IMG/VR virus record: IMGVR_UViG_3300023218_000040
Span: 96,001 to 160,000 of that record
Reading direction: 5' to 3' (one strand)
DNA from: a virus
Taxonomy: Duplodnaviria; Caudoviricetes
DNA length: 64,000 bases
Shown: one piece after another, positions 30,636 through 53,489 of the stretch
Layout of the letters: each line of letters begins with the position of its first letter
How positions within the stretch are numbered: position 1 is the stretch's first letter
Notes under the pieces: generated by a model
What the model was told of the DNA's origin: nothing
Databases searched by the model: none
What the model saw: the letters and a program-made list of their open reading frames with translations, nothing else
Program-made: the position numbers and the translations under genes

Positions 30636-31311
30636 CATCATCTTTCTTTCTCATCAGGAGCCATTGGCTGAAAACAACTGGCTGCAATTGAAGAAGAGGT
30701 TCCCAAGAGCAATGCGTGTCGATGGGGTAAGCCCCATAGTCGCTGCTCATAAGGCTGCTGCCCGGAAGTGTCGAACTCGGTATTTCTGGGTGGTTGATGC
30801 TGACAACGAAATTTGCTCTGGTTTCGACTTCAGCTTTCAATGGCCGAAGGATGATAATGTTCGTGATCGAGTGGCTGTCTGGAGAGCATACAATCCCATT
30901 ATTGGTTTGTCGTATGGGTATGGAGGAATAAAGCTTCTTCCCCGACTATCTGTCCTTGCTGTACCGGATAATGTGGTGGATTTCACCACGAGTATCAGTG
31001 AGCATTTCCATGTCATGGAGGAAGTAGCTTCTGTTACAAACATTGATACCTCTCCATTCGATGCCTGGAGGGCTGGCTTTCGAGAAGCAGCCAAACTGGC
31101 ATCACATACGATAGCCCGTGGGAACAATAAGGAGAATGAAGAGCGTTTGTCTGCGTGGTGCGCCGCTAAGCTCGGGAGGTATGGAAACTATTGTGCTCTC
31201 GGGGCTCGCTCTGGACGAAATCATGCATTGGATGGAGAGGATCTATCCAAAATAAACGATTGGAATTGGCTGCGGAGTAGATTTGATGAAGAATCAAAAC
31301 CTTCAATTTGA
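30628..31311 (+). CDS. Glycosyltransferase-like protein, paralog of 24231
   Basis: IIFLSHQEP, RVDGV..IVAAHK, FWVVDADN, GLSYGYGGIKL and AWRAGFREAAKL. Confidence 0.65.
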   Translation: MYDIIFLSHQEPLAENNWLQLKKRFPRAMRVDGVSPIVAAHKAAARKCRTRYFWVVDADNEICSGFDFSFQWPKDDNVRDRVAVWRAYNPIIGLSYGYGGIKLLPRLSVLAVPDNVVDFTTSISEHFHVMEEVASVTNIDTSPFDAWRAGFREAAKLASHTIARGNNKENEERLSAWCAAKLGRYGNYCALGARSGRNHALDGEDLSKINDWNWLRSRFDEESKPSI

Positions 31312-31897
31312 TTCCGAACAGTTACAGACAGCGACACATACTGCCATTCAGATGTTTGGCTGGAGCCATAACAATCAAATCGGTCTTTCCCATCGTCCTG
31401 GTAGCTCCGAAGTCTATTCATCAGAACGAGTACATGGGGAGTGCATTCGAGCCGGTTTCAAAGATGGTAAGAAAGTTTTGGAAGACCGAGAGATTTCCGA
31501 GTTCAATAGTGAGTTCCGCAACACTTACTTTTTTGACGTATGGGAAGGAATGTTTACTTGGAGTCAAATGACCTACGGATACGGTATCTGTAGGATGCGA
31601 TTGATGATGCTTCCTCCAATGTCCACAATCAGCTTTCACCGTGATTTCGAGGACCGCTTCCACGTCGCAATTCTTACCAATCCGTACGCTTTCATCCTGG
31701 AGGGAGGACAGGACTACAATATCGATGACGATGGTCGCCTTGAACCTCAGCTAGAAAGTTACCATATTCCTGATGACGGATATGTATACAAACTTGATGG
31801 GTACAAGAGGCATTGCGCCATGAATGGCCACGGGAATATGGAAAGAATCCACCTTGTGGCGTCCTTGGCTAGACCAGTCGATGAGAGCAGACGTTGA
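31286..31897 (+). CDS. Asp/Asn beta-hydroxylase (AspH/LpxO)-family Fe(II)/2OG dioxygenase #1
   Basis: RMRLMML...FHRD...FHVAI.TNP...DG.VY...RHCAMN...ERIHLV. Confidence 0.75.
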   Translation: MKNQNLQFDSEQLQTATHTAIQMFGWSHNNQIGLSHRPGSSEVYSSERVHGECIRAGFKDGKKVLEDREISEFNSEFRNTYFFDVWEGMFTWSQMTYGYGICRMRLMMLPPMSTISFHRDFEDRFHVAILTNPYAFILEGGQDYNIDDDGRLEPQLESYHIPDDGYVYKLDGYKRHCAMNGHGNMERIHLVASLARPVDESRR

Positions 31898-32453
31898 TCT
31901 TACAGCATGGTCCCATGGCCAAATAATGGCCAAGCTTTGGCTCGTCCGAAATCTGGAGCGTCTGTATCAAACTAAAGAACCTCTCAAAATTGCCATCTAC
32001 GGAGGATGGTACGGCATAACAGCTTTTCTAATTCTGAGTAGAGACAAGCTACCGATTCAGAACATCCGGTCATATGATATTGATCCGTCGTGTGAAATCA
32101 TAGCGGATAAAATCAACACCGCATGGGTATATGAGAAGTGGAAATTCAAAGCATTCACCGCTGATGTGAACCAGTTTAACTGGTACACGGAGTATGATTG
32201 GATTCCAGATCTGGTTATCAACACTTCGGCTGAACACTTTGAGGAGGACGATTGGTATTACAGTCTGTTACCTCAGACATGTATTGCAGTTCAAGCTAAC
32301 AATCAAGACAATGACTCACATACTAATCGAGTGGATACCTTGAAAGATATGGAGTCCAGGTTTCCCATGCGTGATGTTCTATACAACGGAGATCGGGTGT
32401 ATGAGTATCCGGACAAAATGTATAGGAGATTCATGAGAATCGGTTTCAAATGA
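31881..32453 (+). CDS. Class I SAM-dependent methyltransferase
   Basis: IAIYGGWYG, IRSYDIDP and LVINTSAEH. ATG 31881 preferred. Confidence 0.75.
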   Translation: MRADVDLTAWSHGQIMAKLWLVRNLERLYQTKEPLKIAIYGGWYGITAFLILSRDKLPIQNIRSYDIDPSCEIIADKINTAWVYEKWKFKAFTADVNQFNWYTEYDWIPDLVINTSAEHFEEDDWYYSLLPQTCIAVQANNQDNDSHTNRVDTLKDMESRFPMRDVLYNGDRVYEYPDKMYRRFMRIGFK

Positions 32454-33067
32454 TAGCCATCGACCTGTGTCAAACTGATGATCCGACAGCATGGAATATG
32501 TTTCATGAGTTATGGATTGAAGCAAAAACAGGCTCAGATCGTAATGCCAGGAACTATGTGAACTTGAAAATTTTGGAGCACGATGCGTTCCATGTATTGA
32601 TTGATGATAGGGCGATTGCTTTTGCTGGTGTATACAACGCTGGTATCTATCCGAACACAATAGCCCGTGTGCTGAACCGTGCATACTATGCTAGATCAGT
32701 AAGACAATCAGGACTACCAACAAACAAGGACGGACGAAGAAAAGGAGGACTCCTATCTAAGTACGTTCTTCCAATGCAAGTGGAAGTCTGCCGACGAAAC
32801 AGATCGGCTGCGTTCTTCTCAATCGAGTTCAATCGTCGCAGACGCACCATTCAGAATGTCACGTCCTGGATCAATGAGTACGACCGAACATATGAGGAGA
32901 CATGGGAAGTTCTTTCGGACATGTATTTCACATGCCCAGAGTATGAAGATTGCATCAAGGATCCGACCTGTTGGCAAAATGTATCCGTGTTGAAGTTTCA
33001 AAGGGATTTCGAGTTCCCGTTACAGAGGAAAACTAGAGATGAGTGGAGACTATACTTTAGTAACTAA
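32450..33067 (+). CDS. Hypothetical protein, possible GNAT-like fold
   Basis: AIAFAGVY...ARVLNRAYY...R..G pattern suggests an acyltransferase fold; coupled by ATGA overlap. The fold call is weak. Confidence 0.4.
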   Translation: MIAIDLCQTDDPTAWNMFHELWIEAKTGSDRNARNYVNLKILEHDAFHVLIDDRAIAFAGVYNAGIYPNTIARVLNRAYYARSVRQSGLPTNKDGRRKGGLLSKYVLPMQVEVCRRNRSAAFFSIEFNRRRRTIQNVTSWINEYDRTYEETWEVLSDMYFTCPEYEDCIKDPTCWQNVSVLKFQRDFEFPLQRKTRDEWRLYFSN

Positions 33068-33947
33068 GACCGCTCGTGCTATTGCTGACAGGGAATTCTT
33101 GGCATGGTACAACAGCGTTAATAACGTTTCATTGGCTGAAGCTAGAGCCATGTACATCCAGGATAACTTTCGTGACATGTACATTGACCGGTTCAGAAAT
33201 TGGGCAACTGGACATAGCACAAGTCCGATAATCGGTCTTGATGATTTTCCTAAAGTGGCCATCACGAATGCGATAACCCATTCCCTGGATTGCTTCGTAG
33301 CCAAGTGTCTCGGTCAAGGTCTAAATATTCGGGTCTTCCGTGGTGAATATCCGTACGTGAAAAGGCTTATGACGTTCCATGATAAGCCCCTGGTGTACTT
33401 GGATGATCAAGAAGTTCGTAGTTGTGATGCGGTGGTTCTATCGTATCCGTTTTCAGCCACCGGAGATAGACACTTCAGAACATTCGAACTGTTGAATGAA
33501 TGCTGTAAACTGAGAGTACCAGTATTCTTGGATTGTGCCTTTTGGCCTGCTTGTAGGGATGTACCTATTATCCTTGAGCACGAGTGCATCAGGCATGTAG
33601 CATTCAGCTTCAGTAAGTTGTTCCCGATGTCAGCGGTTAGGGTTGGCATCGAGTTCATGAGAGAGGACGTGCCACATCCAATGGATGTATTCAGCCTCGG
33701 TCACTACTACAACAGGCTGGGAGCGTATCTAGGTTATAAGTTGATGACACGTTTCTCACCCATGTATGTCACGAGTAGATATAGTGTAGCACAACATGCT
33801 ATTTGCAACGATTTAAAATTGATACCAAGCAAGACAGTAATCTTCGGATTGAGCCACGATTCAGTCTGGGATGAGTACTCACGTGAAGGTGTCATCAATA
33901 GACCATGCGTAACTAAAGGCATCGAGCGTTTGATGGGTGAAAAATGA
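33039..33947 (+). CDS. PLP-dependent aminotransferase/decarboxylase-like protein (fold type I, compact)
   Basis: FRGEYPY, LSYPFSATG, VFLDCAF (PLP-binding Asp) and FSFSKLF....RVG (Schiff-base Lys). Confidence 0.65.
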   Translation: MSGDYTLVTKTARAIADREFLAWYNSVNNVSLAEARAMYIQDNFRDMYIDRFRNWATGHSTSPIIGLDDFPKVAITNAITHSLDCFVAKCLGQGLNIRVFRGEYPYVKRLMTFHDKPLVYLDDQEVRSCDAVVLSYPFSATGDRHFRTFELLNECCKLRVPVFLDCAFWPACRDVPIILEHECIRHVAFSFSKLFPMSAVRVGIEFMREDVPHPMDVFSLGHYYNRLGAYLGYKLMTRFSPMYVTSRYSVAQHAICNDLKLIPSKTVIFGLSHDSVWDEYSREGVINRPCVTKGIERLMGEK

Positions 33948-34690
33948 CAGACTTGACGCAACTTTTCCCTGGAAGAGACTTGAAGAGAGAGTGGAAAGAA
34001 CGATTTGGTTCCAAGGAGTTTGATGCCCCTGTTCGTGTGCTACCTTGGATTACGGTGGACACCGCTCGTTTGCAGGATTTCTATGAGAAGTGGAAGGGAC
34101 GTGATCATTCGGTATTCGAGGATGAGGTCATTGAGTATGCCTTTGGTGGAAGGTATTGCTCACCAGATGATTACTGGCCACTTGTTATTCATCACCCCAC
34201 AGACCTAGCGGTAGAGCTTCAGAGGCAACTGGATGAAGAACGTGGGGTGTCATGGTATGAACATCAGAAAGGACTATCTACCAAGAAGAGAATCAAGTCA
34301 CTCATTGATTTGAACAAGGACTATGATCCAATCATCGATGAGCGTAACTACACTAAGTTACCTGACCGATTGAATGAGACCTACATAGGTGAGTTGCTAG
34401 GACAGTTCAAAGCTACTCCGGTTAGGGCTAGGTTTGTCAAGCTTATGCCAGACCAAGAAGTAGGTGAGCATATCGATTATAGTCCGAAGTACGCATTGAA
34501 GGCACACATACCCGTATACACACATCCAGATGCAGTGCTTGGGTTTGAAGGACATGGCGACATACATTTGGTTCCAGGACATGCTTATGTGGTGAACACG
34601 GGTATTAAGCATTGGGCTAAGAACAACAGTAGAAAACAGCGAGTTCATTTAGTGGTCTCGCTTGACGGACAAGAGGACATAACATCATGA
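33944..34690 (+). CDS. AspH-family Fe(II)/2OG dioxygenase #2
   Basis: RARFVKL...EHID...HIPV.T...G.AY..NTG..HWA.N...RVHLV. Confidence 0.78.
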   Translation: MTDLTQLFPGRDLKREWKERFGSKEFDAPVRVLPWITVDTARLQDFYEKWKGRDHSVFEDEVIEYAFGGRYCSPDDYWPLVIHHPTDLAVELQRQLDEERGVSWYEHQKGLSTKKRIKSLIDLNKDYDPIIDERNYTKLPDRLNETYIGELLGQFKATPVRARFVKLMPDQEVGEHIDYSPKYALKAHIPVYTHPDAVLGFEGHGDIHLVPGHAYVVNTGIKHWAKNNSRKQRVHLVVSLDGQEDITS

Positions 34691-35394
34691 GAAACGTGCT
34701 AGAAACAACGCAGGATCTTCCTCCTTTGGTAGAGAGACTGGATATCAAGGCTGATATCGGAAAGCTGTACGACCTTGCTAAGAAGGTCCACCTTGTGAAC
34801 TACAAGTACATACCAACGTTTCATTTTGAGAGCACACAGGAATCTCGAATCCATCTGTATGGTATTCGCAGCGGAATGCTGATCTCATCTCGTATGCAGG
34901 GCGGTGGGTATCAAGGATCCACCATGACTCTATCCGAAGAAGATGAGAAGCTGAGAATTAGAACCGAGTCCAGTCTAGAAGCGATTAAAGATTATCCAGA
35001 TCAGTACACAACAAGGACCAATATTTGCCTTGGATACGTGAATGATGTGATTGATTTCTTTCCAGAGTGCTGGAGAACTACGTTTTGGACTGAGACTCCT
35101 GTATACGGATACATTCCACATACCGACAACCCATCGGACAGTGCAGCCATCCATATCCCGTTGTACACCAATGCGTTTTGCTACATGGGCTATGAAACCC
35201 AACAGGTGTATCATCTACCAGCGGATGGTCATTGTTATTGGGTTAACACCCACATCCGCCACACTGCGTGGAATCATGGTAGCGAGCTACGCACACACCT
35301 ACGTATCAATCTACCTCGTGCTTGCTATGACAAGTACAAAAGCATGGAGAATGCGGTGATCAACTTCTCAGGCAAGTATCCAGATCCAGAATGA
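34687..35394 (+). CDS. AspH-family Fe(II)/2OG dioxygenase #3
   Basis: PHTD...IHIPLYTN...HLPADG..YWVNT...HTAWNHG...RTHL. Confidence 0.78.
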   Translation: MRNVLETTQDLPPLVERLDIKADIGKLYDLAKKVHLVNYKYIPTFHFESTQESRIHLYGIRSGMLISSRMQGGGYQGSTMTLSEEDEKLRIRTESSLEAIKDYPDQYTTRTNICLGYVNDVIDFFPECWRTTFWTETPVYGYIPHTDNPSDSAAIHIPLYTNAFCYMGYETQQVYHLPADGHCYWVNTHIRHTAWNHGSELRTHLRINLPRACYDKYKSMENAVINFSGKYPDPE

Positions 35395-36023
35395 ATATTG
35401 TACGGACAAACATCAAAGTGGACATTGATACCCTTTATCGGGAGTATCAGATCATGTTGGAATCCCACACCGAGAGATACCTTGGTATTGACACTGAGGT
35501 TCCTTCTGGTGTTGACATCGATGATACCATCTCTAAGGAAAAGTATTGCTTTCGTGGAAGCTGGGCTCATGGTACAAGGTTTCACAGCACTAGAGAACTG
35601 ACCCAGGAAGAAGAAAGAGCAGTATCCAGCAACAGCGAAGAGGGGGCTAAGATTGATCATCTTTTTACTAGACGAAATGAGAAGTGTGTTGGGTACCTAA
35701 ATGATGTATTGGACTTTCTCTCTGATGCCTGGAGAGGAAGCTGGTGGACTCTTGATCCTGGGTTTTGTTACAAGCCACATAGTGATTCGCCATACGACTC
35801 CATGAGATGCCATATTGCGCTAACCACCAATCCATTCTGTCACATGGCATATGATGATGGCGAGTGTCATCACATCCCAGCAGATGGGCATATATACTTG
35901 TCTAGAACTGACATCAAGCATACCGCATGGAACATGGGTGAGTCTTCTAGAACACACATCATGATGAAAATGCCTCTACAATCTTGGAATCGATATGCCA
36001 ACCATTCATTATATTCCATTTAG
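35391..36023 (+). CDS. AspH-family Fe(II)/2OG dioxygenase #4
   Basis: PHSD...CHIALTTNP...HIPADG...HTAWNMG...RTHI. Confidence 0.78.
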   Translation: MNIVRTNIKVDIDTLYREYQIMLESHTERYLGIDTEVPSGVDIDDTISKEKYCFRGSWAHGTRFHSTRELTQEEERAVSSNSEEGAKIDHLFTRRNEKCVGYLNDVLDFLSDAWRGSWWTLDPGFCYKPHSDSPYDSMRCHIALTTNPFCHMAYDDGECHHIPADGHIYLSRTDIKHTAWNMGESSRTHIMMKMPLQSWNRYANHSLYSI

Positions 36024-36663
36024 GTTCCATCGAAGTGCCATTACTGTCGATCTGGAAAGATTGCAGGATTGGTATCTGAAGTATGCCTTTGCTAATCCTC
36101 CCCATAGATGGAACAGAGAAGAGGACGAGTACCAGACCCACGAGACGTTTGGAGAAGGTGCATATGGTTGGCAGTTGCACGAACCAAACTTGACTGGAGC
36201 GATTCCGATCAACGAGGAGGGTACTTCTGTTGATAGTCCCATCATGTCCAAGCGTGCCACATATCGGTTTGCGGATGGTGAGACTAGAAAGGTACGTAAT
36301 CAGGATTATACAATTCGTTCTGCTGGTCTTACTGGCTATTTGGCTGAGATACTTGATCACTTCCCGGAAGCATACCGCTGCGGTATGAAGGACATGTGTC
36401 CTGGCTTTGGGTATAAGGAGCACGTGGACCCTCCCCGTGGTAATCACTATCGAATTCATATTCCGTTGTACACGAATGAGGGTTGCAAACAAGAAGTATT
36501 GGGGGAGGAGCGTCACTTCGAGGCAGACGGTCATTTGTGGTTTATGAATACCGGAGTTTTGCATCGAGCATGGAACCACGGAACTACTCGTCGTCTCCAC
36601 ATCTATTGGCAGATGCCATTAGATACATTTTGGAAGTACCACGAGAAGAGTATGCAGCTATGA
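35995..36663 (+). CDS. AspH-family Fe(II)/2OG dioxygenase #5
   Basis: EHVD...RIHIPLYTN...HFEADG..WFMNTG..HRAWNHG...RLHI. Confidence 0.78.
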   Translation: MPTIHYIPFRFHRSAITVDLERLQDWYLKYAFANPPHRWNREEDEYQTHETFGEGAYGWQLHEPNLTGAIPINEEGTSVDSPIMSKRATYRFADGETRKVRNQDYTIRSAGLTGYLAEILDHFPEAYRCGMKDMCPGFGYKEHVDPPRGNHYRIHIPLYTNEGCKQEVLGEERHFEADGHLWFMNTGVLHRAWNHGTTRRLHIYWQMPLDTFWKYHEKSMQL

Positions 36664-37310
36664 GTGGTTTGATTAAGACTAATGGGCACATTGATTTGGA
36701 TCGTCTTCGGAACTGGTACGAGGCGTTACAATACTATGAGTATCCAACTAGGAAGGATGACACAATCGACTACGCCAAAGACTACTTCGAGCCCGGAAGC
36801 AAGGGATACGGATGGGCGTTGCACGAGTTCGAGAAGCCGGATAACGTAGAACGAATTTGGTGGCGTAATCCAGATAGAAAAGATGATCCGATGATTCGCT
36901 CTAAGGGTCGGTTGTTTTTCAAAGATGGTAGCAAGGCATTCATTGGCAATGAGCACTTCACCAAACGTAGAGAAGTTTGCAATGGTTATATGGCCGACGT
37001 TCTAACTATTTTCCCAGAGGCATACCGTGGCGCTGTATGGGCGATGCATCCTGGGTTTAAGTTTGTTGAGCACATTGACTATCCACAAGAGCAAACATAT
37101 CGCTTCCATGTGGTTCTTTATACTAATCCAAATGCCATGTTCAAGCTAAGCGATGAGGTCGTGCACATGCCAGCGGACGGACATTTGTGGATGGTCAAAA
37201 CCGGTTCAGAAAAGCATACCGCTTGGAATTATGGAGAAACTGATCGAATTCACATTCATTGGCAGATGCCAATTGAGACTTGGGACAAGTATATCAGCGG
37301 ATTGACTTAA
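36660..37310 (+). CDS. AspH-family Fe(II)/2OG dioxygenase #6
   Basis: EHID...RFHVVLYTNP...HMPADG...HTAWNYG...RIHI. True start ATG 36660 (ATGA overlap), not 36483. Confidence 0.78.
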   Translation: MSGLIKTNGHIDLDRLRNWYEALQYYEYPTRKDDTIDYAKDYFEPGSKGYGWALHEFEKPDNVERIWWRNPDRKDDPMIRSKGRLFFKDGSKAFIGNEHFTKRREVCNGYMADVLTIFPEAYRGAVWAMHPGFKFVEHIDYPQEQTYRFHVVLYTNPNAMFKLSDEVVHMPADGHLWMVKTGSEKHTAWNYGETDRIHIHWQMPIETWDKYISGLT

Positions 37311-38103
37311 TCCCGTTTGCGATCTTCTTGGAAGTCTCTGGCCCAGGGTGTTGTAGATCTCTGGATACATCCACCTGAATGTCCGCTAGACTAGCTCTCA
37401 AGTAGTTATCGCTAAACGGAAAAAACTCTCGATACACTTCATCGTATGTCAGGCAGTGTGCATCGACCAGAGCCCATGCGTAGTCAGTTGAGTTTGATTT
37501 TAAGAACAGATCAACCATTGTGATATTCTTCAGTAGATTGTTTACATTGCTGGTGAAGTGAGACAGTTGCCCCTGAGCATCCATATGTGGAACGTACTTG
37601 TCTGATACTTTCACGGTCTGATCTTTCCAGTTTCTCAACCATTGGATTGGGTTACCTTCTTCGTCATAGATTTCCCGACGAGTGTGGTATGTCCAGTAGA
37701 TGAATACAAACGTTGGTTTGAAAAGAGGCACTGTACTCATGACTGTGCGTGCAATCAGATCGTTGCTGGCACCAGCAATTCCCATGTTGAATGGGACATG
37801 ACGTTCGTCATGTGCGAGATAGGGTATGGTATGCTCAACTGGTAGACCGTACCCCTGCATCACGGAGCATCCATAGTATGCCTCAGTGATTTTGTGCTTG
37901 GCTACCACGAATGGAGGAGCACGAAAGCCGTGGTGATTGAACCGATATCTGATGTCATCGGGGCCGTACGGAACTTCCTCTCCGGTTTCAATATTAAACT
38001 GATACTTCTCCTCACTGTCTCCCCTGAACCACTTCGACTCGTAGTTAGTGTATTCGGATAGATCAGGTAGCGTTGTCGGTGAGGTTATCTTGAACCCACG
38101 CAT
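37294..38103 (-). CDS. SGNH/GDSL-like protein
   Basis: YRFNHHGFR, YYGCSVMQGYGL, NMGIAGASND and DLQHPG. Confidence 0.68.
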   Translation of the reverse strand: MRGFKITSPTTLPDLSEYTNYESKWFRGDSEEKYQFNIETGEEVPYGPDDIRYRFNHHGFRAPPFVVAKHKITEAYYGCSVMQGYGLPVEHTIPYLAHDERHVPFNMGIAGASNDLIARTVMSTVPLFKPTFVFIYWTYHTRREIYDEEGNPIQWLRNWKDQTVKVSDKYVPHMDAQGQLSHFTSNVNNLLKNITMVDLFLKSNSTDYAWALVDAHCLTYDEVYREFFPFSDNYLRASLADIQVDVSRDLQHPGPETSKKIANGIKSIR

Positions 38104-38839
38104 CAAACTCTCCTAGATTAGTGATATACAAATTCTTATCAATCAGATTTCCCACCTTTTTGGGTAAACGATCACGGTCTCTTTCGTTCACATAGTTCTG
38201 CCAATCATCAAAGCCTAGCTCCGCACCAAGCATCTCGTATCGGTCCTTGTACTGAACCATATCCTCATACCATAGCAGATTATAGTCTACTCCAGGTATA
38301 TTCATTACACAACGTTTGGCTTCTTCGAGGGCACGAAAGTCGTACAGTATGATGTCACCAATTTCTTCAGTAAATTCACCGGGAGTGAATAGCTTCTCCT
38401 GTCCTTCCCTGCGAACCGTGAACCAGTTGGATATAATGGCAATTGCATAGGACAGTGCCCGTTCACGTTTATCTTTACGGTCAGTGATCACGAAGTGATA
38501 GTTATCGTAGAGGTACTGCAACCGGTCGTCATCACAATGCAGCCAGAAATAGGCTGGGAACTTGATGAAGTAAGTTTGGTCGTGATACTTCTTTAGTAAA
38601 TCCACCCGTCGATTGTATTCGAACTTCCGGTCGATTTCCATGTGCCATGCCTCGTGAGGAGACAGATGGCTGAGCCTAGTCGTTGCTACGGACCAACCGG
38701 TGTCATACACCCAATTGCGTAGCATGAAGTCTCCGAGGGCCGTGTGATAGCCGAGCTTACGATTTACGTACCGCCATAGGACAACCTGAAGCATGGTGCT
38801 CCCGGTTCTAGATCCAGAAAGGACGCAGTATCGCTTCAT
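38063..38839 (-). CDS. Sulfotransferase-like protein (Stf0/Sulfotransfer family)
   Basis: N-terminal 5'-PSB loop SGSRTGSTML, R.D..ERALS (3'-PB) and LWYEDM. ATG 38839 preferred. Confidence 0.65.
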   Translation of the reverse strand: MKRYCVLSGSRTGSTMLQVVLWRYVNRKLGYHTALGDFMLRNWVYDTGWSVATTRLSHLSPHEAWHMEIDRKFEYNRRVDLLKKYHDQTYFIKFPAYFWLHCDDDRLQYLYDNYHFVITDRKDKRERALSYAIAIISNWFTVRREGQEKLFTPGEFTEEIGDIILYDFRALEEAKRCVMNIPGVDYNLLWYEDMVQYKDRYEMLGAELGFDDWQNYVNERDRDRLPKKVGNLIDKNLYITNLGEFDAWVQDNLTDNAT

Positions 38840-38843
38840 GCAT

Positions 38844-41840
38844 TCACCGTATTTCCGACAGTGGGTGAGCATAATGTCGGTGTCTGCTCACCAAAAATCC
38901 AGTGCCCACTGCGGCATCAGCGAACGAAACGTTGTTAGTATTAATCAAGGAGTATTTATCATCCACTCCTGTATGAGTCTGCCTGATCTCATACATGCGG
39001 GCTTGATGTCTGAGCTTTTCGCCGTTGGTGAAGTATTCCTTCCAGTTGTGACTGACCTTGATGTGATTACCCGATTGCGGATCGTATGATGGGTCAAGCA
39101 TGATTCCCTGCTGGAAATTAATTAGGTCATCAAGTTTCCAAGACCAATTTACATGCTTGGACATATACTGGATCAGTCTTGAATAGAACACGTCCTTATG
39201 TCCACAAAGGCTGAGCCATAGCCAATCAGCGGGGTTCCTTCTTGTTGGTCCGAACCCGATTGCCTTTTGCATGAGATGATTTGATGGATGGTTTGGATAT
39301 GAATGTAATAGCTTTTTGAGCTTGTGTAGTCTACGACCAATAACACAGTCTTCTATCTCCATACATCCTGTGATCAGGTTTTCGTAGAACTTGCGATAGG
39401 ATACACCTTGCTCCCGGTTCAGGTATTCGGCAATGTATCTGGTGTAGTAGCCACAATGAAGAGCTTGAATAGCCCATGCGAATAGATAGCAATCAACCCA
39501 ATCGTCTTTCGACATGGTATCGGTTGCTATCACTACTTGGTTGGTTTCAATTTCTTCTGTATCTGTTCTTGGTAGTTCCAGGAACACGTTCTTGGTTACT
39601 GTCTTCAATCCATACCGGCTGACATGCTGGGCCATTGGGGCATTGGGCAATATGGAAAGCTCCCATACTCGGATATCCTCATGGTTGCCTGCTGCTATCA
39701 ATGAACAAATCCCATCGAGGAAGCTATCTTTAGTTTCCTCTGGAAGAGGCAGGATGAGTTCACTGTAGGTGTGGTATCCTTCTGCACGATATCTTTCTTG
39801 CAGTTCTCGGTATTTGTTCACACCGATGTTTTCCCTATCAACAGCTTCCAGTACACCTTCATCCATGCTTTGCATAGACAGCGTAGTTCCATAGATCATC
39901 CCCGCTTCCATGAGAGATTTGGTGATGTTGAATACCCGGTTGTTTGAGTTTTTTGCGAAGCTCCCTCGGATTTGCTTGGGGTATCCATACTCACTTTTGC
40001 TCCTGATCAAAGCGTTCGTGATTCCCTCATCAACTTTCAGCATACCAAAGTTGGCATCACAGATGTATACGTTATCGATCTGGTGTTCAGTGAAAAAGTC
40101 GAAGTCATGCCCGAGTCTCTTTAGGGAGAACTTCCTGACCTTATTCATCAATGATGATCCCCAATCGCAATTATGTGATTCTACTCCATGTACCGAATAA
40201 ACTGGTTGCTCTTCAGTTTCCAGATTAAACACATACCCGTCATAGTATTTCATTTTCACAGATTTCACTAATACTGTTTGATTTGGGTTATCAACAACAA
40301 ACTGGCCTGAAAATTCCACCCGATATGATGTGTTAACGCATACTTTCTTTCCTTGGATGTGTTCATCTAGTGATTTTCTTTGATATACACCAGCGTTCTT
40401 ACCAAACCTATTCAAGATTACTTGAAGTTGGAACGCTAAAGTTTTAGACACGGTGCTGGAAGCCCAACGCCCATTTGAATTTTCCTCGTTAATGTGAAAG
40501 GAGCCATCGCCTAAAAGATATCCTTCTATGAGTGGCTTTAGTAAAGAAGCGTCTAAATTCATCCAAAAATGGGGAATTCTCTTTGTTGTGGCCTTGTCAC
40601 CGAACATAGATTTGAATAAGTTTCCAAGAACACTGTTGCTTATAGATACTTGTGTAGCTGTGTTGGTATCTGATAAGTAAGCCTTTAAACCAAATATCGA
40701 ATACAGAGTGGATAATATCTCATTTTGAAGGTCTATTTGGTCTTTGTGAAATGTCCAATTTACAGTACACGAATTAGGTCTGTTTTTGTGAAAACAGACC
40801 GAGCCATCTGCTATGAATAGACCACAAAGCCTCATGAACTCTTTGGTAAGAGGTATGACCTTTGGTATTGGATTTTTACCCCCTGAATACCTAACCCATC
40901 CTATGTTCTCTTGAACATCCGGAAGAATATCTCCTACAGAAAGATGATCCTTCGGAATGGGGGATGGAGAAGATAGGACAAGTCTATCACCCACTCTTAT
41001 TTTAGAAGCATACTTCAATCCGTTCTCAGTGAACCACTCATGATCTGGTGTACAATGTATTTCTTGTCTACCTTGTACCTTAATAACAATCATATCACCA
41101 CGATATCGTCTTTTCATTTTTCTGGCTATTGGTTGCATTCCGTAAGAGGACCAAACATGAGAAACCGAATCAGACGATACAGCTTTTTCTATGGTCATTA
41201 CCCCATCATTCGTATAGACCCATGCATTATTGTCTAAACAAAACGAACATTGATATGGACATCCACGGTTGGTTTCCCAAGGAACCCAGAATTCTTGACC
41301 GGTCTCTTTTACTTCGGTTACGGCTGAATCCAGGAACTGATAAGGGCTATCTATTTCTATATCCTTTGGCAGCTTTTCTCCAAACAGAGATCTACTTGGT
41401 ACATGGAAATCGCTTGTGCTTGTTCCATGTAGTGGATACGCATCAGCCTCTGAAATATGAATCTTCAGAACATTAGCGAACGTTACCTCCCCCTCGCCGT
41501 GAACGATTATATCAACGTAAGGATGTTCCTTGAAGAAGTTTCCTGGTGTGTTGGGAACATGTGGACCACCTGCAACTACGTAAACCTGTGTATTCTTTTC
41601 TCGCAACAGTCGGGCGATCTTCATTTGCTTCTTGAAGTTCCAAACGTAGCAACTCAAAGCGAGAACATCGCAATCAATCTTAGCAACGATGTTCTCTGCT
41701 GTATCATCCAGAAATATGGGATCGCCCCACTCTAGTTGATTTGCTAAAGCGGGTTCGCACTCCTCGATGTAGCCCCTAAGCAATCCATGTATCAGAGGCA
41801 AGAACACCAAACGGTTCAAGCAGACGACTTGGACTTTCAT
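38844..41840 (-). CDS. Cobalamin-dependent radical SAM enzyme interrupted by an intein
   Basis: B12-binding domain (LSCYVWN, VAGGPHV, GEGEVTF); WETNRGCPYQCSF[intein]CDWG; ICDANFG; SMQS; ELILPLPEET. Confidence 0.9.
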   Translation of the reverse strand: MKVQVVCLNRLVFLPLIHGLLRGYIEECEPALANQLEWGDPIFLDDTAENIVAKIDCDVLALSCYVWNFKKQMKIARLLREKNTQVYVVAGGPHVPNTPGNFFKEHPYVDIIVHGEGEVTFANVLKIHISEADAYPLHGTSTSDFHVPSRSLFGEKLPKDIEIDSPYQFLDSAVTEVKETGQEFWVPWETNRGCPYQCSFCLDNNAWVYTNDGVMTIEKAVSSDSVSHVWSSYGMQPIARKMKRRYRGDMIVIKVQGRQEIHCTPDHEWFTENGLKYASKIRVGDRLVLSSPSPIPKDHLSVGDILPDVQENIGWVRYSGGKNPIPKVIPLTKEFMRLCGLFIADGSVCFHKNRPNSCTVNWTFHKDQIDLQNEILSTLYSIFGLKAYLSDTNTATQVSISNSVLGNLFKSMFGDKATTKRIPHFWMNLDASLLKPLIEGYLLGDGSFHINEENSNGRWASSTVSKTLAFQLQVILNRFGKNAGVYQRKSLDEHIQGKKVCVNTSYRVEFSGQFVVDNPNQTVLVKSVKMKYYDGYVFNLETEEQPVYSVHGVESHNCDWGSSLMNKVRKFSLKRLGHDFDFFTEHQIDNVYICDANFGMLKVDEGITNALIRSKSEYGYPKQIRGSFAKNSNNRVFNITKSLMEAGMIYGTTLSMQSMDEGVLEAVDRENIGVNKYRELQERYRAEGYHTYSELILPLPEETKDSFLDGICSLIAAGNHEDIRVWELSILPNAPMAQHVSRYGLKTVTKNVFLELPRTDTEEIETNQVVIATDTMSKDDWVDCYLFAWAIQALHCGYYTRYIAEYLNREQGVSYRKFYENLITGCMEIEDCVIGRRLHKLKKLLHSYPNHPSNHLMQKAIGFGPTRRNPADWLWLSLCGHKDVFYSRLIQYMSKHVNWSWKLDDLINFQQGIMLDPSYDPQSGNHIKVSHNWKEYFTNGEKLRHQARMYEIRQTHTGVDDKYSLINTNNVSFADAAVGTGFLVSRHRHYAHPLSEIR
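40170..41240 (-). mobile_element. Intein (357 aa) with LAGLIDADG homing endonuclease
   Basis: Starts CLDNNAWVYT, block B CTPDHEW, LCGLFIADGS and IEGYLLGDGS, ends VFNLET...VESHN followed by Cys+1. Visibly AT-richer than its exteins. Confidence 0.92.
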
Positions 41841-42589
41841 CTATGACTCTTCATTAACCCAAACGTTTCTAACACCCATGCACCCGGATCGAATTCCCAC
41901 TTCTCTATTCCGATACGATATTTGCTTGGGAACTTGTGATGATTATTGTGCCATCCCTCTCCTCCAGTGAAAAGGTTAGCAAACCAGTTGTTACGACTAG
42001 TCTTGTCCTTGGTTTCGTAGCTACGATACCCGTATGTATGGCTCACTGCGTTAATAAGTCCATACGCATGGAAGGCTATGGCACCAGGGATGCAGAATCC
42101 GAAAATCATAACCAGGGGATCAATCAGCCATAGCAATGCTGCCCACCCAATCAAGATGTGGAAGTAGTGCTTGTGTGCGATCATCACGTTCTTGTTCCTC
42201 AGCAAATCACGAATGAGTCTAGGCGGAATATGGAATGGCTTCCACAGGTGAAAGTATGTTCTCCAGAACCCTAGAACTATTGGTGAGTGAGGATCTTTGT
42301 CCGTGTCTACGTGAGCATGATGTAGACGATGGGATCCTGCCCATCCTAGTGGTGTGCCACCACAAGCGAGACAGCCGACATAGATCATAACTGTCTCAAA
42401 CCACTTATATGTCTCGAAACTCTTGTGCGACAGGTAGCGATGAAATCCCAGGCTAATCCCAATCGTGCCAATGAATAGCCAAACAAAATAGGATACAATC
42501 CATGCCCACCAGGGGCCATAGATGAATGCCGGAATCAACATCAGGTGGTTGAATCCGTGAATGAGTCGTAGTTTATTCGAAAAGTTCAT
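41837..42589 (-). CDS. Membrane fatty-acid desaturase (delta-9 acyl-CoA/acyl-lipid type)
   Basis: Three His boxes HRYLSH, HRLHH and HNNHH; DKDPHSP; TGGEGW; WEFDP; hydrophobic segments. ATG 42589 (ATGA overlap). Confidence 0.9.
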   Translation of the reverse strand: MNFSNKLRLIHGFNHLMLIPAFIYGPWWAWIVSYFVWLFIGTIGISLGFHRYLSHKSFETYKWFETVMIYVGCLACGGTPLGWAGSHRLHHAHVDTDKDPHSPIVLGFWRTYFHLWKPFHIPPRLIRDLLRNKNVMIAHKHYFHILIGWAALLWLIDPLVMIFGFCIPGAIAFHAYGLINAVSHTYGYRSYETKDKTSRNNWFANLFTGGEGWHNNHHKFPSKYRIGIEKWEFDPGAWVLETFGLMKSHR

Positions 42590-43245
42590 GACATTATTTG
42601 TTTGATAGCGTCGAAATGACAACCGACAAGAATTGATACTCGGGATTCATCCCCGATGACTCGAACACGATGTCGATAACCTGTGTTACAAAACCATACA
42701 TGACCAGGAAGCATAATGCGTTGTTCGATATCACTCTTCTTCTTGATTTCAAAGATTTGGTTTCCACTAATCATGATTTGCACCCGACATGCATAGCTTG
42801 TATTAGTATCTATGTGCCAGTCCAATTCTGCTCCGGGTGGCAGAATAGCAATCCTTGCACGGAAGTGTGGATTGACATACGGGGTGATAAAGGAACGAAA
42901 CTTCAGACCCTCTTTAGTGTAAGTATCGTACTCCCACTCATCAGGGACATCAATTGACGAGTTGCCGGTAACTTGCAGTAGATATTGCTTGTATTCAGTA
43001 GGAAAGTACGTCTTCAACTTGCAGGCTTGCGCAATCTCGTAGCGGTCGGAATTCTGAATGTCGTTGTAGTCCTTCGGCAATCCGTTCACAAGGAACATGA
43101 TTTCCTCATGAATAGTACGAACCACAGTTGGATCCACAGTTCCGAGTTTATAGAACAGCGGAAGTTTTTGACGATCAGGGCCATTCTCTCCACGAACACG
43201 GGCTTTGATTCGTTCTGGATCTTGTAAAGCGCATTTATCATTCAT
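42586..43245 (-). CDS. AspH-family Fe(II)/2OG dioxygenase #7
   Basis: RARIAILPPG..LDWHID...G.VWFCNTGYRHRV...RVSI. Confidence 0.72.
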   Translation of the reverse strand: MNDKCALQDPERIKARVRGENGPDRQKLPLFYKLGTVDPTVVRTIHEEIMFLVNGLPKDYNDIQNSDRYEIAQACKLKTYFPTEYKQYLLQVTGNSSIDVPDEWEYDTYTKEGLKFRSFITPYVNPHFRARIAILPPGAELDWHIDTNTSYACRVQIMISGNQIFEIKKKSDIEQRIMLPGHVWFCNTGYRHRVRVIGDESRVSILVGCHFDAIKQIMS

Positions 43246-43278: not shown

Positions 43279-44223
43279 ATGGTGGATATGAGCAAAGTAA
43301 TACGACTTGAACACCGGCATGAGGACGGCGCTAAGCACGTACTCATCGAGTGGAGTCTTGGTAACAAATGTAATTACGCTTGCTCGTATTGTCCTGCTCA
43401 TCTCCACGATGGGTCCATCGGTTGGCACCCCTATGAGAATCTAATTGGCTTCCTAGATACTGCCCACTCCCATTATTACGATAAGCTGGGCAAGAGTCTC
43501 ATGGTTCAATACACTGGAGGAGAACCAACAGTCTATCCCCAGTTCCGTGATATGGTCAAGCATGCACACGAAAAAGGCTATTTGCAAGGAATGATTTCCA
43601 ACGGATCTCGAACCATTAGGTTCTGGAAGAGTATTAGAGAGTTCTTTACAAAAATAAGCCTGACATTCCATCGTGAGTTTGCAGACCCAGAACACTATAT
43701 CAATGTAGTCCGCTGTGTATCAGAGACAACTCCTGTGCACTGCAATATTACGATGATTCCAAAGGAGTTCGACAACAACCTCAAGATGGCTGAGAGACTG
43801 TGGGAGATAGATAACGTGTCAGTTCTTCTCAAGCCGCTTCGTGAGGAGTTCAAGGGCGAACTCTACCCCTACACACCTGAGCAACTAGAAGTCATGGCAC
43901 GAGCCAGGGGAAAGGCTCCTGTGCACGTAAATTGGCCTCGCTTCGGCATGAAGGTAGTCTACGAGGACGGCACCAAAGAAAACTGCCGAGTTAACGAGAT
44001 GGTCATTCAGAAGCAGAACCGATGGAAGGGCTGGGAATGTGCTGCTGGAGTTGAACAGGTAGTCGTAACCGTAGAAGGTGATGTGTTCATTGGCAGATGT
44101 CGTGTCGGTGGATCAATCGGCAACCTCAATACCGGAGTGAATTTTCCTGACAAAAATGTAATCTGTACGAAAGATGAGTGTTGGTGTTTGACTGACATGT
44201 TGACTACGAAGGTAAGGCGATGA
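43279..44223 (+). CDS. Radical SAM enzyme with C-terminal twitch/SPASM-like domain
   Basis: CNYACSYC, YTGGEPT and ISNGS; C-terminal CAAG...EGDVFIGRC...CTKDECWC. Confidence 0.87.
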   Translation: MVDMSKVIRLEHRHEDGAKHVLIEWSLGNKCNYACSYCPAHLHDGSIGWHPYENLIGFLDTAHSHYYDKLGKSLMVQYTGGEPTVYPQFRDMVKHAHEKGYLQGMISNGSRTIRFWKSIREFFTKISLTFHREFADPEHYINVVRCVSETTPVHCNITMIPKEFDNNLKMAERLWEIDNVSVLLKPLREEFKGELYPYTPEQLEVMARARGKAPVHVNWPRFGMKVVYEDGTKENCRVNEMVIQKQNRWKGWECAAGVEQVVVTVEGDVFIGRCRVGGSIGNLNTGVNFPDKNVICTKDECWCLTDMLTTKVRR

Positions 44224-45131
44224 TTTACATCAGGGTGTATGACGAGGATGGTGATTGGAATGTCGAAGATCCAATCAATTTGAAGGCTACGGGCAGAAAC
44301 CGGTTTGAGGGTTGGAAGTGTTCTGTGGGTCAAAGGAACCTGTATATCGATTGGGATGGTAACATTTTTCGTGGTACGTGTCGAGTAGGTGGCAAGGTTG
44401 GGAATGTATACGAGGAAGACTTTCCGATGCCCGATGGTTGGGTCACTTGTGATAAGAAAACCTGCAACTGCGTGACTGAAGTTCAGCTACCGAAGGCAAA
44501 GGATTTACAAGACCCAGAAAGAAACAGCATTATCCCCATGCAAGACTTCCCTGTCTATGTTCAGTGGGATGTAGGTCGTCGGTGCAATTTTGATTGCAGC
44601 TACTGTCCTTCCTTTGTCCACAACGATCACGAGGAACATCAGAATCTTGATATCCTAAAGGACGTAGTGGTTCGACTTCATGATTCTTTTCGTGAGCCAA
44701 TCACATTCAACTTCGCTGGTGGTGAACCAACCACTCATCCGGACTTTATCGAGTGGTGCGAGTTCATCAAGAAGCTAGGGCACACAATCAATGTTCAGAC
44801 GAATGGTGCTCAGGTTGCAAGCTACTGGAAGAAACTGGCTGAAGTTGTCAATCACATCTCGATATCAGTGCATTTGGAGTTTATGACAGAAAAAAGATTG
44901 ATGCAAACCATCAATGCCATCATGGAGACTTCTTGTCTAATAGAAGTGAAAATCATGGCACACCCTGACCATTGGGACAAAGCCATGCGTTTTAAGTCGC
45001 TGATGGAACAAATTCCGTTGAATAAGGGGGTGATGCTTCCGCTTCGAACGAGCCTTGGCCGCAACACAGAATTGATGGAATATACACCAGAGCAGATGAA
45101 GGAGATGGGAACGATAAATACTCCTGATTAG
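44220..45131 (+). CDS. Radical SAM enzyme with N-terminal twitch/SPASM-like domain
   Basis: N-terminal CSVG...DGNIFRGTC...CDKKTCNC, then CNFDCSYC, FAGGEPT and QTNG. Confidence 0.87.
   Translation: MIYIRVYDEDGDWNVEDPINLKATGRNRFEGWKCSVGQRNLYIDWDGNIFRGTCRVGGKVGNVYEEDFPMPDGWVTCDKKTCNCVTEVQLPKAKDLQDPERNSIIPMQDFPVYVQWDVGRRCNFDCSYCPSFVHNDHEEHQNLDILKDVVVRLHDSFREPITFNFAGGEPTTHPDFIEWCEFIKKLGHTINVQTNGAQVASYWKKLAEVVNHISISVHLEFMTEKRLMQTINAIMETSCLIEVKIMAHPDHWDKAMRFKSLMEQIPLNKGVMLPLRTSLGRNTELMEYTPEQMKEMGTINTPD
45115..45120 (+). promoter_or_regulatory. T4-late-like promoter core TAAATA
   Basis: ATAAATA upstream of the GGAGGT RBS and ATG 45142. Confidence 0.5.
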
Positions 45132-53454: not shown

Positions 53455-53485
53455 TTGACTTATTCACTTATATGGGATATAAATA
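53455..53485 (+). promoter_or_regulatory. Composite promoter: TTGACT-N17-TATAAA, with the -10 also an exact T4 late TATAAATA
   Basis: TTGACT 53455-53460 and TATAAATA 53478-53485, directly upstream of the tmRNA. Confidence 0.72.
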
Positions 53486-53489
53486 AAAG

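What the first reader, a model, noticed from the sequence alone, without database searches (positions are those of the whole stretch)
31286..43245. Seven AspH/LpxO-family Fe(II)/2OG dioxygenase paralogs, five in direct tandem
Seen in sequence: all seven keep the HxD...H triad and the downstream Arg (FHRD, EHID, PHTD, PHSD, EHVD, EHID, WHID). Four adjacent copies (34687-37310) share an H(T/R)AWNxG signature and (P/E)ADG, while their N-terminal substrate-side regions are very divergent. Inference: duplication and divergence produced enzymes for different positions or substrates, such as iterative hydroxylation of one scaffold or of many Asp/Asn/acyl sites. This is unusual redundancy for a virus.
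Basis: partly seen in the sequence, partly recalled or inferred. Interest (0 to 1): 0.75.

Follow-up and report, generated by a model that had tools for sequence, protein, structure and literature searches.

The report
Seven Cpz10-like hydroxylase genes in phage
A roughly 360-kb uncultured phage carries seven intact, conserved genes for small iron/2-oxoglutarate hydroxylases beside its tail-fibre genes; this is the largest version seen here of an uncharacterised enzyme module that many aquatic phages and some predatory bacteria share, and what it hydroxylates is unknown.

Summary
Seven ORFs (D1 31286-31897, D2-D6 33944-37310 in tandem, D7 42586-43245 on the minus strand) keep HxD...H plus the 2OG-binding Arg. 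Six pass Pfam PF05118. D1 does not, but its subfamily profile matches Cpz10 over the full length (E 3e-26). A diverged relative keeps the array in the same order at 60-80% amino-acid identity with saturated synonymous sites, so all copies are under purifying selection.

The genes belong to the AspH superfamily, but the nearest characterised enzymes are Cpz10 (an aminoacyl-nucleoside beta-hydroxylase) and free-proline hydroxylases, not AspH or LpxO. They have no TPR domain, no membrane segment, and a full HxD triad. They are not one burst of duplication: D3-D6 form a probable tandem-duplicate clade, D1, D2 and D7 are older lineages, and an AU test rejects a single clade (p 0.0002).

The host is a Rak2-like jumbo myovirus. 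The island follows the baseplate and tail-fibre genes, like the pelagimyophage "host recognition cluster". Cultured phage Mosig has a two-copy version. Related IMG/VR loci hold 1-4 copies, and 70 of 80 also hold a Delta9-desaturase homolog. The substrate is unknown; an amino-acid-like or acyl small molecule is most likely. Other first-stage notes of this scan cover this same stretch; I found none on other DNA.

The parts
31286..31897 (+). D1, 203 aa. The most Cpz10-like hydroxylase (FHRD...H...RIH), with an insertion between core strands.
   Evidence: No Pfam hit alone. Its subfamily profile A3 matches Cpz10 7V4F at E 3e-26 over the full length. 80% identity to the partial ortholog in L003.
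31926..32453 (+). Class I SAM methyltransferase-like protein (lead only).
   Evidence: Atlas feature search: viral clusters named class I SAM-dependent methyltransferase, score 0.98. No Pfam hit. Start taken from the gene call on L001.
32450..33067 (+). GNAT-fold acyltransferase-like protein (lead only).
   Evidence: Atlas structure search: GNAT families at TM 0.56-0.62, from a low-confidence model with pLDDT 0.53. No Pfam hit.
33039..33947 (+). Short PLP aminotransferase-fold protein.
   Evidence: Atlas: TM 0.71-0.91 to aminotransferase class I/II clusters. blastp E 7e-18 to the Mosig_00079 'putative aminotransferase'.
33944..34690 (+). D2, 248 aa, with a helical N-terminal half. This is the type widespread in IMG/VR phages.
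   Evidence: PF05118 at 5e-7. Model pLDDT 84; best PDB match Cpz10 (TMt 0.78); OlsC ranks 5th in Swiss-Prot AFDB. 69% identity to the L003 ortholog.
34687..35394 (+). D3, 235 aa.
   Evidence: PF05118 at 7e-6. 42% identity to D4. Clade with D4 has support 100. 72% identity to the L003 ortholog, dN/dS about 0.1.
35391..36023 (+). D4, 210 aa.
   Evidence: PF05118 at 1e-8. 61% identity to the L003 ortholog.
35995..36663 (+). D5, 222 aa.
   Evidence: PF05118 at 1e-9. Model pLDDT 91; best PDB match Cpz10 (E 2e-10, TMt 0.79). Orthologs at 60-71% identity.
36660..37310 (+). D6, 216 aa.
   Evidence: PF05118 at 1e-5. 38% identity to D5; clade with D5 has support 86. ATG at 36660 as called on L001.
41837..42589 (-). 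Delta9-type fatty-acid desaturase-like membrane protein, directly downstream of D7.
   Evidence: PF00487 at 1e-22. Hydropathy maximum 2.2. blastp 1e-40 to Mosig_00080. Homolog present in 70 of 80 related IMG/VR loci.
42586..43245 (-). D7, 219 aa, the most divergent copy. It keeps HxD...H and Arg but has Gln and Ser where Cpz10 has His123 and His172.
   Evidence: PF05118 at 1.3e-5. Alignment. blastp 1e-13 to Mosig_00072.
38844..41840 (-). B12-binding radical SAM enzyme interrupted by a LAGLIDADG intein. Part of the same island.
   Evidence: Pfam B12-binding, Intein_splicing and LAGLIDADG_3. B12 radical SAM genes also lie next to AspH-like genes in L009 and L103.
43279..45131 (+). Two adjacent radical SAM genes transcribed divergently from D7.
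   Evidence: Pfam Radical_SAM. Mosig has the same divergent layout, with genes 00083/00084 opposite 00081/00080.

Best explanation
The seven genes encode soluble, single-domain Fe(II)/2-oxoglutarate hydroxylases. They belong to the Cpz10-like branch of the AspH (PF05118) superfamily.

In each protein the HxD...H triad binds Fe(II) and the conserved Arg of the RxH motif holds the C5 carboxylate of 2OG. Oxidative decarboxylation of 2OG then gives an Fe(IV)-oxo species that hydroxylates a C-H bond of the substrate. This chemistry is inferred from the family.

The genes are not one recent burst of duplication. D3-D6 are old tandem duplicates. D1, D2 and D7 are separate, older lineages brought together in one island.

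The island lies directly after the baseplate and tail-fibre module of a Rak2-like jumbo myovirus. It also encodes a PLP-fold protein, radical SAM enzymes, a carbamoyltransferase and a Delta9 desaturase-like protein, plus probable methyltransferase and GNAT proteins.

I infer that the hydroxylases act at different positions, or on different intermediates, of amino-acid-like or acyl small-molecule substrates, free or tethered to a lipid, sugar or nucleoside. I think they act in a tailoring pathway aimed at the cell envelope or the virion surface, rather than on Asp/Asn residues of proteins. The substrate and the product are not shown.
For: Enzyme class and competence:
- PF05118 is above cut-off for D2-D7.
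- R, P, HxD, G, H and R columns are invariant in all seven.
- The D5 and D2 models (pLDDT 91 and 84) fold as double-stranded beta-helices.
- The array is syntenic in contig L003 at 60-80% amino-acid identity. Synonymous sites are saturated (pS 0.71-0.85) against pN 0.14-0.28.

Cpz10-like branch:
- The profile of all seven matches Cpz10 at 1e-21. The next matches are the proline hydroxylases 4P7W and 1E5R.
- The D1-subfamily profile matches Cpz10 at 3e-26 over the full length.
- Foldseek ranks Cpz10 first for both D5 and D2 (TMt 0.77-0.79), free-proline hydroxylases second, and AspH after them.
- Cpz10 hydroxylates the 2-aminobutanoyl part of a nucleoside intermediate and also oxidises free L-Met (PMC9814697).

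Small-molecule context:
- D1-like single-copy genes of marine bacteria sit just upstream of a PF01212 PLP lyase in 30 of 68 loci. I read that lyase as threonine-aldolase-like from its family and length. Aldehyde dehydrogenase and ABC transporter genes lie nearby.
- In the window, D1 and D2 flank a PLP-fold protein and probable methyltransferase and GNAT proteins.

Separate lineages: tree and AU test.

Island type:
- Baseplate wedge, a 3426-aa virion protein and a tail-fibre-like gene lie upstream.
- Phage Mosig has a homologous two-copy island next to its tail fibres.
- The pelagimyophage 'host recognition cluster' has been described (PMC7029224).
Against: - No substrate, product or expression evidence exists.
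- Fold and profile similarity to Cpz10 does not fix the substrate class. AspH (protein substrate) and OlsC (lipid substrate) are in the same superfamily and also match.
- The most conserved neighbour of the D2 type is a membrane desaturase. That points to lipids rather than amino acids.
- SPASM and B12 radical SAM neighbours, and a Trp halogenase in a related contig, would also fit peptide (RiPP) tailoring.
- The methyltransferase and GNAT assignments rest on language-model and structure look-alikes only.
Confidence: 0.55

Rival explanations
1. Lipid hydroxylases working with the desaturase. At least the D2/D7 type would hydroxylate acyl chains or headgroups of host membrane lipids (lipid A or aminolipids such as ornithine lipids), as LpxO and OlsC do. 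The adjacent Delta9 desaturase would introduce double bonds, so together they remodel the envelope of the infected cell.
For: - A desaturase homolog is present in 70 of 80 IMG/VR loci that carry a D2-type gene. It is directly adjacent in 50, and in 48 of those it lies on the same strand upstream of the hydroxylase.
- The same pair occurs in cultured phage Mosig and in the window, where D7 overlaps the desaturase start.
- OlsC ranks 5th for the D2 model, aligned over nearly its whole length (TM 0.47).
- Phage Delta9 desaturases have been shown to act on C16 acyl chains (PMC5776448).
- Bdellovibrionota loci share the same pair.
Against: - None of the seven has a hydrophobic segment (maximum 19-aa hydropathy below 0.9, against 2.2 for the desaturase).
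- No NCBIfam model matched any of the seven.
- Cpz10 and proline hydroxylases are closer than OlsC by sequence and by fold.
- Linkage does not show a shared substrate.
Confidence: 0.2
2. Protein or peptide hydroxylases. They would modify residues of the neighbouring tail-fibre and baseplate proteins, possibly creating glycosylation sites, or residues of a ribosomal peptide tailored by the radical SAM enzymes (RiPP-like).
For: - The island lies directly after structural and tail-fibre genes, here and in Mosig.
- The founding member of the family, AspH, hydroxylates proteins.
- B12 radical SAM and SPASM radical SAM enzymes, common peptide maturases, recur beside these genes.
- Viral protein hydroxylases appear among weaker fold matches: mimivirus lysyl hydroxylase and PBCV-1 prolyl hydroxylase.
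Against: - There is no TPR or other substrate-docking domain; AspH needs its TPR domain to bind substrate (PMC13168262).
- The iron site is the common HxD triad, not AspH's two-His site.
- I did not look for a precursor peptide, and no Pfam model named one.
- The nearest relatives act on small molecules.
Confidence: 0.15
3. Nucleotide or DNA hypermodification. The hydroxylases would act on amino-acid groups attached to nucleobases or nucleosides, by analogy with Cpz10's nucleoside substrate and with thymidine hypermodification clusters that use PLP, radical SAM and carbamoyl or acetyl transferases.
For: - Cpz10 works on a glycyluridine derivative.
- The island has a carbamoyltransferase, radical SAM enzymes and PLP-fold and GNAT-like proteins.
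- A dCMP-deaminase/endonuclease VII gene lies at 45930-46568.
Against: - No thymidylate-synthase-like hydroxymethylase is found in the 204-kb record, although the record is incomplete.
- In the Cpz10 complex the nucleoside part of the ligand lacks defined density and is exposed to bulk solvent. The defined density, with the new hydroxyl, is on the 2-aminobutanoyl part.
- The module's most conserved partner is a membrane desaturase.
Confidence: 0.05

Closest known systems
Cpz10 (PDB 7V4F/7V4M/7V4N), the Fe/2OG beta-hydroxylase of caprazamycin biosynthesis in Streptomyces
   Same: - Best sequence-profile and fold match.
- Small, stand-alone cupin of about 180-250 aa.
- HRD/HxD...H triad, the 2OG-binding Arg170 equivalent, and the His123/His172 pair are kept in D1-D6.
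- D1 aligns over the full length.
   Different: - Only about 20% identity.
- No other caprazamycin-pathway genes were recognised in the island.
- D7 lacks the His123/His172 pair.
- D2 has an extra helical N-terminal part.
- The setting is a phage island beside tail-fibre genes, not an actinomycete antibiotic cluster.
Human AspH and the Pfam family PF05118 (Asp_Arg_Hydrox)
   Same: - Six of seven pass the Pfam model.
- The oxygenase-domain fold matches.
- His (H690-like), distal His and Arg (R735-like) are in equivalent positions.
   Different: - AspH binds iron with two His only, and needs a TPR domain to bind EGF-like domains (PMC13168262).
- The phage proteins have a full HxD...H triad and no TPR domain.
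LpxO and OlsC, bacterial lipid acyl 2-hydroxylases
   Same: - Same Pfam superfamily.
- OlsC is a partial to near-full-length fold match.
- Linkage to a fatty-acid desaturase suggests a lipid setting.
   Different: - No hydrophobic segment.
- No NCBIfam hit.
- More distant than Cpz10.
- I could not fetch LpxO itself, so it was not compared.
AspH-like genes in the 'host recognition cluster' of pelagimyophages (PMC7029224), e.g. Pelagibacter phage Mosig genes 00072 and 00081
   Same: - Same family (D2 and D7 against Mosig_00072, E 1e-13).
- Same neighbours by homology: desaturase at 1e-40 and PLP-fold protein at 7e-18.
- Mosig also has annotated methylase, N-acetyltransferase and divergent radical SAM genes.
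- Same position beside the tail-fibre genes.
   Different: - Mosig is a 141-kb T4-like phage with two copies. Here a jumbo phage of about 360 kb has seven, including a D3-D6 subfamily that tblastn did not find in any deposited phage (D5 query).
- No function has been tested in either phage.

Membership tests
PF05118 Asp_Arg_Hydrox (AspH superfamily) | Match to the Pfam model above its gathering score (22.6 bits) | tested here: met
   D2-D7 score 25.6-38.6 bits. D1 alone gives no hit, but 4 of the 6 members of its subfamily pass.
PF05118 Asp_Arg_Hydrox (AspH superfamily) | Double-stranded beta-helix fold with Fe-binding His...His and a 2OG-binding Arg | tested here: met
   D5 and D2 models. Fold matches. 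Invariant H, D, H and R columns.
AspH proper (protein Asp/Asn beta-hydroxylase) | Two-His iron site (HxG, no carboxylate ligand) | tested here: not met
   All seven have HxD. The AspH feature is taken from PMC13168262.
AspH proper (protein Asp/Asn beta-hydroxylase) | N-terminal TPR domain that docks EGF-like substrates | tested here: not met
   The proteins are 203-248 aa and single-domain, with no TPR Pfam hit. The models show no TPR repeats.
LpxO/OlsC lipid 2-hydroxylases | Membrane association through a hydrophobic segment (feature recalled from my own knowledge) | tested here: not met
   The maximum 19-aa Kyte-Doolittle hydropathy is 0.20-0.86 in D1-D7, against 2.22 in the neighbouring desaturase.
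LpxO/OlsC lipid 2-hydroxylases | Closest sequence or fold relative is LpxO or OlsC | tested here: inconclusive
   OlsC ranks 13th for D5 (partial alignment) and 5th for D2 (TM 0.47) in Swiss-Prot AFDB. NCBIfam gave no hit. No LpxO sequence was available for a tree.
Cpz10-type small-molecule beta-hydroxylases | Full-length sequence and fold similarity, with H115/D117/H160, R170, H123 and H172 | tested here: met
   (E 1e-21 and 3e-26). (top fold hit). (residues kept in D1-D6; D7 lacks the H123/H172 equivalents).
Cpz10-type small-molecule beta-hydroxylases | Acts on an aminoacyl moiety of a small molecule | not testable with these tools
   Only indirect context is available: PLP-fold neighbours here, and PF01212 PLP lyase neighbours of bacterial D1-like genes.

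The most novel reading that the evidence does not exclude
The hydroxylase plus Delta9-desaturase pair would be the core of a widespread, uncharacterised module of phages and Bdellovibrionota that builds or remodels hydroxylated, unsaturated aminolipid- or lipid A-type envelope molecules during infection. It is often joined by PLP-fold, methyltransferase, GNAT, TauD and radical SAM genes. The seven-copy island of this jumbo phage would then be a full multi-step pathway to a polyhydroxylated lipo-amino-acid-like product that alters the cell surface, for example to exclude competing phages.
Probability: 0.2. Interest if true: 0.75.

Novelty: new variant of a known kind. Interest (0 to 1): 0.5.

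Why it matters
- Fe/2OG hydroxylases of this branch have only a few characterised members, among them Cpz10 and the free-proline hydroxylases. This search found about 5,000 representative clusters.
- Many lie in phages, beside the genes that decide host recognition.
- This island is the richest example seen here, and each copy is conserved. It is therefore a good place to look for the substrate of the whole module.
- The tight pairing with a Delta9 desaturase is not mentioned in the paper on cyanophage desaturases.
- If the pair acts on lipids, it would add a second kind of membrane remodelling to the known auxiliary functions of phages.
- Phage Mosig is cultured and carries a two-copy version, so experiments are possible.

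Tried and rejected
- **PHROGs.** No family matched any of the seven.
- **NCBIfam.** No meaningful hit.
- **Deposited phages.** Megablast of the island found nothing. tblastn of D5 and D7 found nothing. D2 hit only phage Mosig.
- **The search for related loci.** D5 alone found no IMG/VR relative.
- **PDB phmmer.** The 302-aa and 209-aa neighbours gave nothing.
- **Relaxed Pfam.** A scan of ten island neighbours gave only DUF6071.
- **Promoters and terminators.** Promoter-like sites were fewer than in shuffled sequence and terminator-like sites within its range, so no operon boundaries could be drawn.
- **Sequencing runs.** Three DNA metagenome runs of one study hold the stretch; no RNA holder is listed. 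This gives no evidence on expression or habitat.
- **Thymidylate-synthase-like hydroxymethylase.** Not found in the record, which is about 55% complete, so this is not evidence of absence.
- **Considered and rejected.** Pseudogenes or inactive copies are rejected because the catalytic residues are kept and selection is purifying. A single recent gene burst is rejected by the AU test. Chance ORFs are rejected by the Pfam E-values and the orthologs.
Full report
**What is there.** The window is bases 96001-160000 of a 204-kb IMG/VR virus record estimated to be 55% complete. One protein cluster record lists a 360-kb contig that carries the identical D5 protein. Seven ORFs match the finding:

| Copy | Coordinates | Strand |
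|---|---|---|
| D1 | 31286-31897 | + |
| D2 | 33944-34690 | + |
| D3 | 34687-35394 | + |
| D4 | 35391-36023 | + |
| D5 | 35995-36663 | + |
| D6 | 36660-37310 | + |
| D7 | 42586-43245 | - |

D2-D6 are head-to-tail with 4-nt ATGA overlaps, or 29 nt between D4 and D5. All seven start with ATG. Pfam PF05118 (Asp_Arg_Hydrox) is above its gathering score for D2-D7 and absent for D1.

A seven-way alignment has invariant R, P, H-x-D, G, H and R columns. D1 is a true member. A profile of D1 and five relatives matches the solved enzyme Cpz10 at E 3.2e-26 over nearly its whole length, and four of the six subfamily members pass PF05118. An HMM I built from 47 family members finds exactly these seven copies in the 204-kb record.

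**Are the copies functional?** A diverged relative (Logan contigs L003/L004) keeps D1 (partial), the three intervening genes, and D2-D5 in the same order. L004 also holds the start of a D6-like copy. Amino-acid identity per gene is 59-80%. The proportion of synonymous differences is 0.71-0.85, which is saturated, against 0.14-0.28 for non-synonymous differences. Every copy is therefore under purifying selection, and none has lost a catalytic residue. D7 is the outlier. It keeps the triad and the Arg but has Gln and Ser where Cpz10 has His123 and His172. I found no expression data.

**How they relate to each other.**
- D3-D6 are 32-42% identical to one another (E 1e-22 to 1e-43).
- D2, D7 and D1 are much more distant, with E values from 1e-9 up to non-significant.
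- I built a tree with 149 database relatives. In it D3+D4 (support 100) and D5+D6 (support 86) join in an 18-member group of metagenomic sequences. Those I traced lie on phage-like contigs. Support for that group is 59.
- D1, D2 and D7 fall elsewhere in the tree.
- Forcing all seven, with their orthologs, into one clade costs 172 log-likelihood units (AU p 0.0002).

So the array is an old tandem quartet plus three separately acquired or much older lineages. It is not a single expansion.

**Which family?** At Pfam level this is the AspH superfamily, but the closest characterised enzymes are not AspH or LpxO.
- The profile of all seven hits Cpz10 (PDB 7V4F) at 1e-21. The next hits are L-proline cis-4-hydroxylase and proline 3-hydroxylase.
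- AlphaFold models of D5 (pLDDT 91) and D2 (pLDDT 84) both have Cpz10 as top Foldseek hit (TMt 0.77-0.79). Free-proline hydroxylases come second and the AspH oxygenase domain after them.
- In Swiss-Prot AFDB, OlsC appears as a partial match for D5 and as a near-full-length match for D2.
- Cpz10 beta-hydroxylates the 2-aminobutanoyl part of a glycyluridine intermediate and also oxidises free L-methionine. It uses H115/D117/H160, with R170 binding 2OG (PMC9814697).
- AspH has only two His iron ligands and needs a TPR domain to bind its protein substrates (PMC13168262).
- The phage proteins have the full HxD...H triad, no TPR domain and no hydrophobic segment.

**Genomic setting.** The major capsid protein places the phage with the Rak2-like jumbo myoviruses: Yersinia fHe-Yen9-04, Serratia BF, Erwinia pEa_SNUABM and Sinorhizobium Phosso. 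tblastn of D5 and D7 found no match in any deposited phage, these included.

Upstream of the island lie:
- a baseplate wedge gene;
- a 3426-aa virion protein;
- a tail-fibre-like gene.

The island also encodes:
- two DUF6071 proteins and a carbamoyltransferase;
- an AAA ATPase;
- four radical SAM enzymes (one a weak Pfam match), one of them B12-binding and split by an intein;
- a Delta9 desaturase-like protein overlapping D7.

Between D1 and D2 sit three more genes. One is a PLP aminotransferase-fold protein. The other two are probable methyltransferase and GNAT proteins, assigned from Atlas leads only.

**The same module elsewhere.** The only deposited phage with a detectable homolog is Pelagibacter phage Mosig. 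Beside its tail-fibre genes, its annotation shows this order: Asp_Arg_Hydrox, FA_desaturase, aminotransferase, then further genes, then methylase, N-acetyltransferase, Asp_Arg_Hydrox. Radical SAM genes are transcribed divergently. The desaturase (1e-40), the PLP-fold protein (7e-18) and D2/D7 (1e-13) are homologous between the two phages.

The pelagimyophage literature lists an AspH-like gene as core. It also describes a hypervariable 'host recognition cluster' holding tail fibres, glycosyltransferases and radical SAM cassettes (PMC7029224).

In IMG/VR one peptide pattern recovered 182 contigs with D2-type genes. Among the 80 loci fetched:
- copy number per locus of 20 kb or less was 1 (25 loci), 2 (28), 3 (21) or 4 (6);
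- a second PF05118 subfamily was confirmed by Pfam;
- the desaturase homolog was present in 70 loci, directly adjacent in 50, and on the same strand upstream of the hydroxylase in 48;
- TauD, methyltransferase and nitroreductase genes recur.

Larger arrays also exist:
- L008 has four to five copies after DUF6071 and a carbamoyltransferase.
- A Logan contig has at least four copies, one of them a 404-aa two-domain protein, together with a SPASM radical SAM enzyme and a Trp halogenase.

In bacterial genomes the closest D2-type homologs are in Bdellovibrionota. There the desaturase (9 of 12 loci) and multiple copies recur. The largest case, L103, has five copies, radical SAM and B12 radical SAM genes, and an HTTM protein.

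The other 68 bacterial loci are marine Alphaproteobacteria, Acidimicrobiales and Gammaproteobacteria. They hold a single D1-like gene. It is typically followed by a PF01212 PLP lyase (30 loci), which I read as threonine-aldolase-like, or by MmgE/PrpD (17 loci). Aldehyde dehydrogenase and ABC transporter genes lie nearby. I read this as beta-hydroxylation followed by retro-aldol breakdown of an amino acid. That reading is an inference.

**Mechanism and substrate.** The chemistry follows from the family: an Fe(II)/2OG-dependent hydroxylation through an Fe(IV)-oxo intermediate. The substrate is not shown.

Three lines favour amino-acid-like or acyl small molecules, free or tethered:
- the nearest enzymes;
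- the single-domain, soluble architecture;
- the recurrent PLP-enzyme neighbours.

The desaturase linkage keeps a lipid target, as for OlsC and LpxO, as a serious rival for the D2/D7 type. The tail-fibre location and the radical SAM neighbours keep protein or peptide modification open. Nucleotide modification is the least likely.

**Novelty.** The enzyme family, its presence in phages and the island type are all known. What this analysis adds:
- the seven-copy array and its conservation;
- the D3-D6 subfamily;
- the placement of these proteins with Cpz10 rather than with AspH or LpxO;
- the rejection of monophyly;
- the tight hydroxylase-desaturase pairing across phages and Bdellovibrionota, which the cyanophage desaturase paper does not mention.

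I rate it a new variant of a known kind, of moderate interest.

Noticed in passing
window 41837-43245 (-); IMG/VR loci L011-L090; L091 (Mosig) 9679-10955: An AspH-like hydroxylase and a Delta9 fatty-acid-desaturase-like gene form a conserved pair in phages. The desaturase is in 70 of 80 loci and adjacent in 50. The paper on cyanophage desaturases does not mention the pairing.
   Followed up: partly
L092-L103 (Bdellovibrionota MAGs), e.g. L103:2011-12778: MAGs assigned to Bdellovibrionota, a phylum of predatory bacteria, carry the same module: up to five hydroxylase copies, radical SAM, B12 radical SAM, an SDR, an HTTM-domain protein and the desaturase. I did not check whether these regions are cellular or phage-derived.
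   Followed up: partly
L104-L171, gene at about 8001 and the next gene downstream: Single-copy D1-like hydroxylases of marine Alphaproteobacteria, Acidimicrobiales and SUP05-type bacteria lie upstream of a PF01212 PLP lyase or MmgE/PrpD, with aldehyde dehydrogenase and ABC transporter genes. This looks like an uncharacterised amino-acid catabolic operon.
   Followed up: partly
Logan contigs of SRR13425444/5 (no DNA held), protein P0025: A 404-aa protein with two AspH-like domains sits in a contig with at least three further copies, a SPASM radical SAM enzyme, a Trp halogenase and an AMP-binding protein.
   Followed up: no
window 38844-41840 (-) and 55002-57164 (+): Two intein-containing genes: a B12-binding radical SAM enzyme and an IMP dehydrogenase/GMP reductase. 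Both have Intein_splicing and LAGLIDADG hits.
   Followed up: no
window 16146-17633 (+): An HNH/homing endonuclease gene (phrog_559, E 4e-106) is inserted among the baseplate and tail-fibre structural genes.
   Followed up: no
window 53462-53897 (+): ARAGORN calls a permuted tmRNA. Its tag peptide differs from the one a first-stage note read for this element.
   Followed up: no
window 45930-46568 (-): On the near-identical contig L001, this gene carries both Endonuclease_7 and dCMP/cytidine deaminase Pfam hits, an unusual fusion.
   Followed up: no
window 26485-28080 (+) and L008:122-2403: Two DUF6071 paralogs precede the carbamoyltransferase. The DUF6071-carbamoyltransferase pair is also found upstream of the hydroxylase array in the more distant contig L008.
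   Followed up: no
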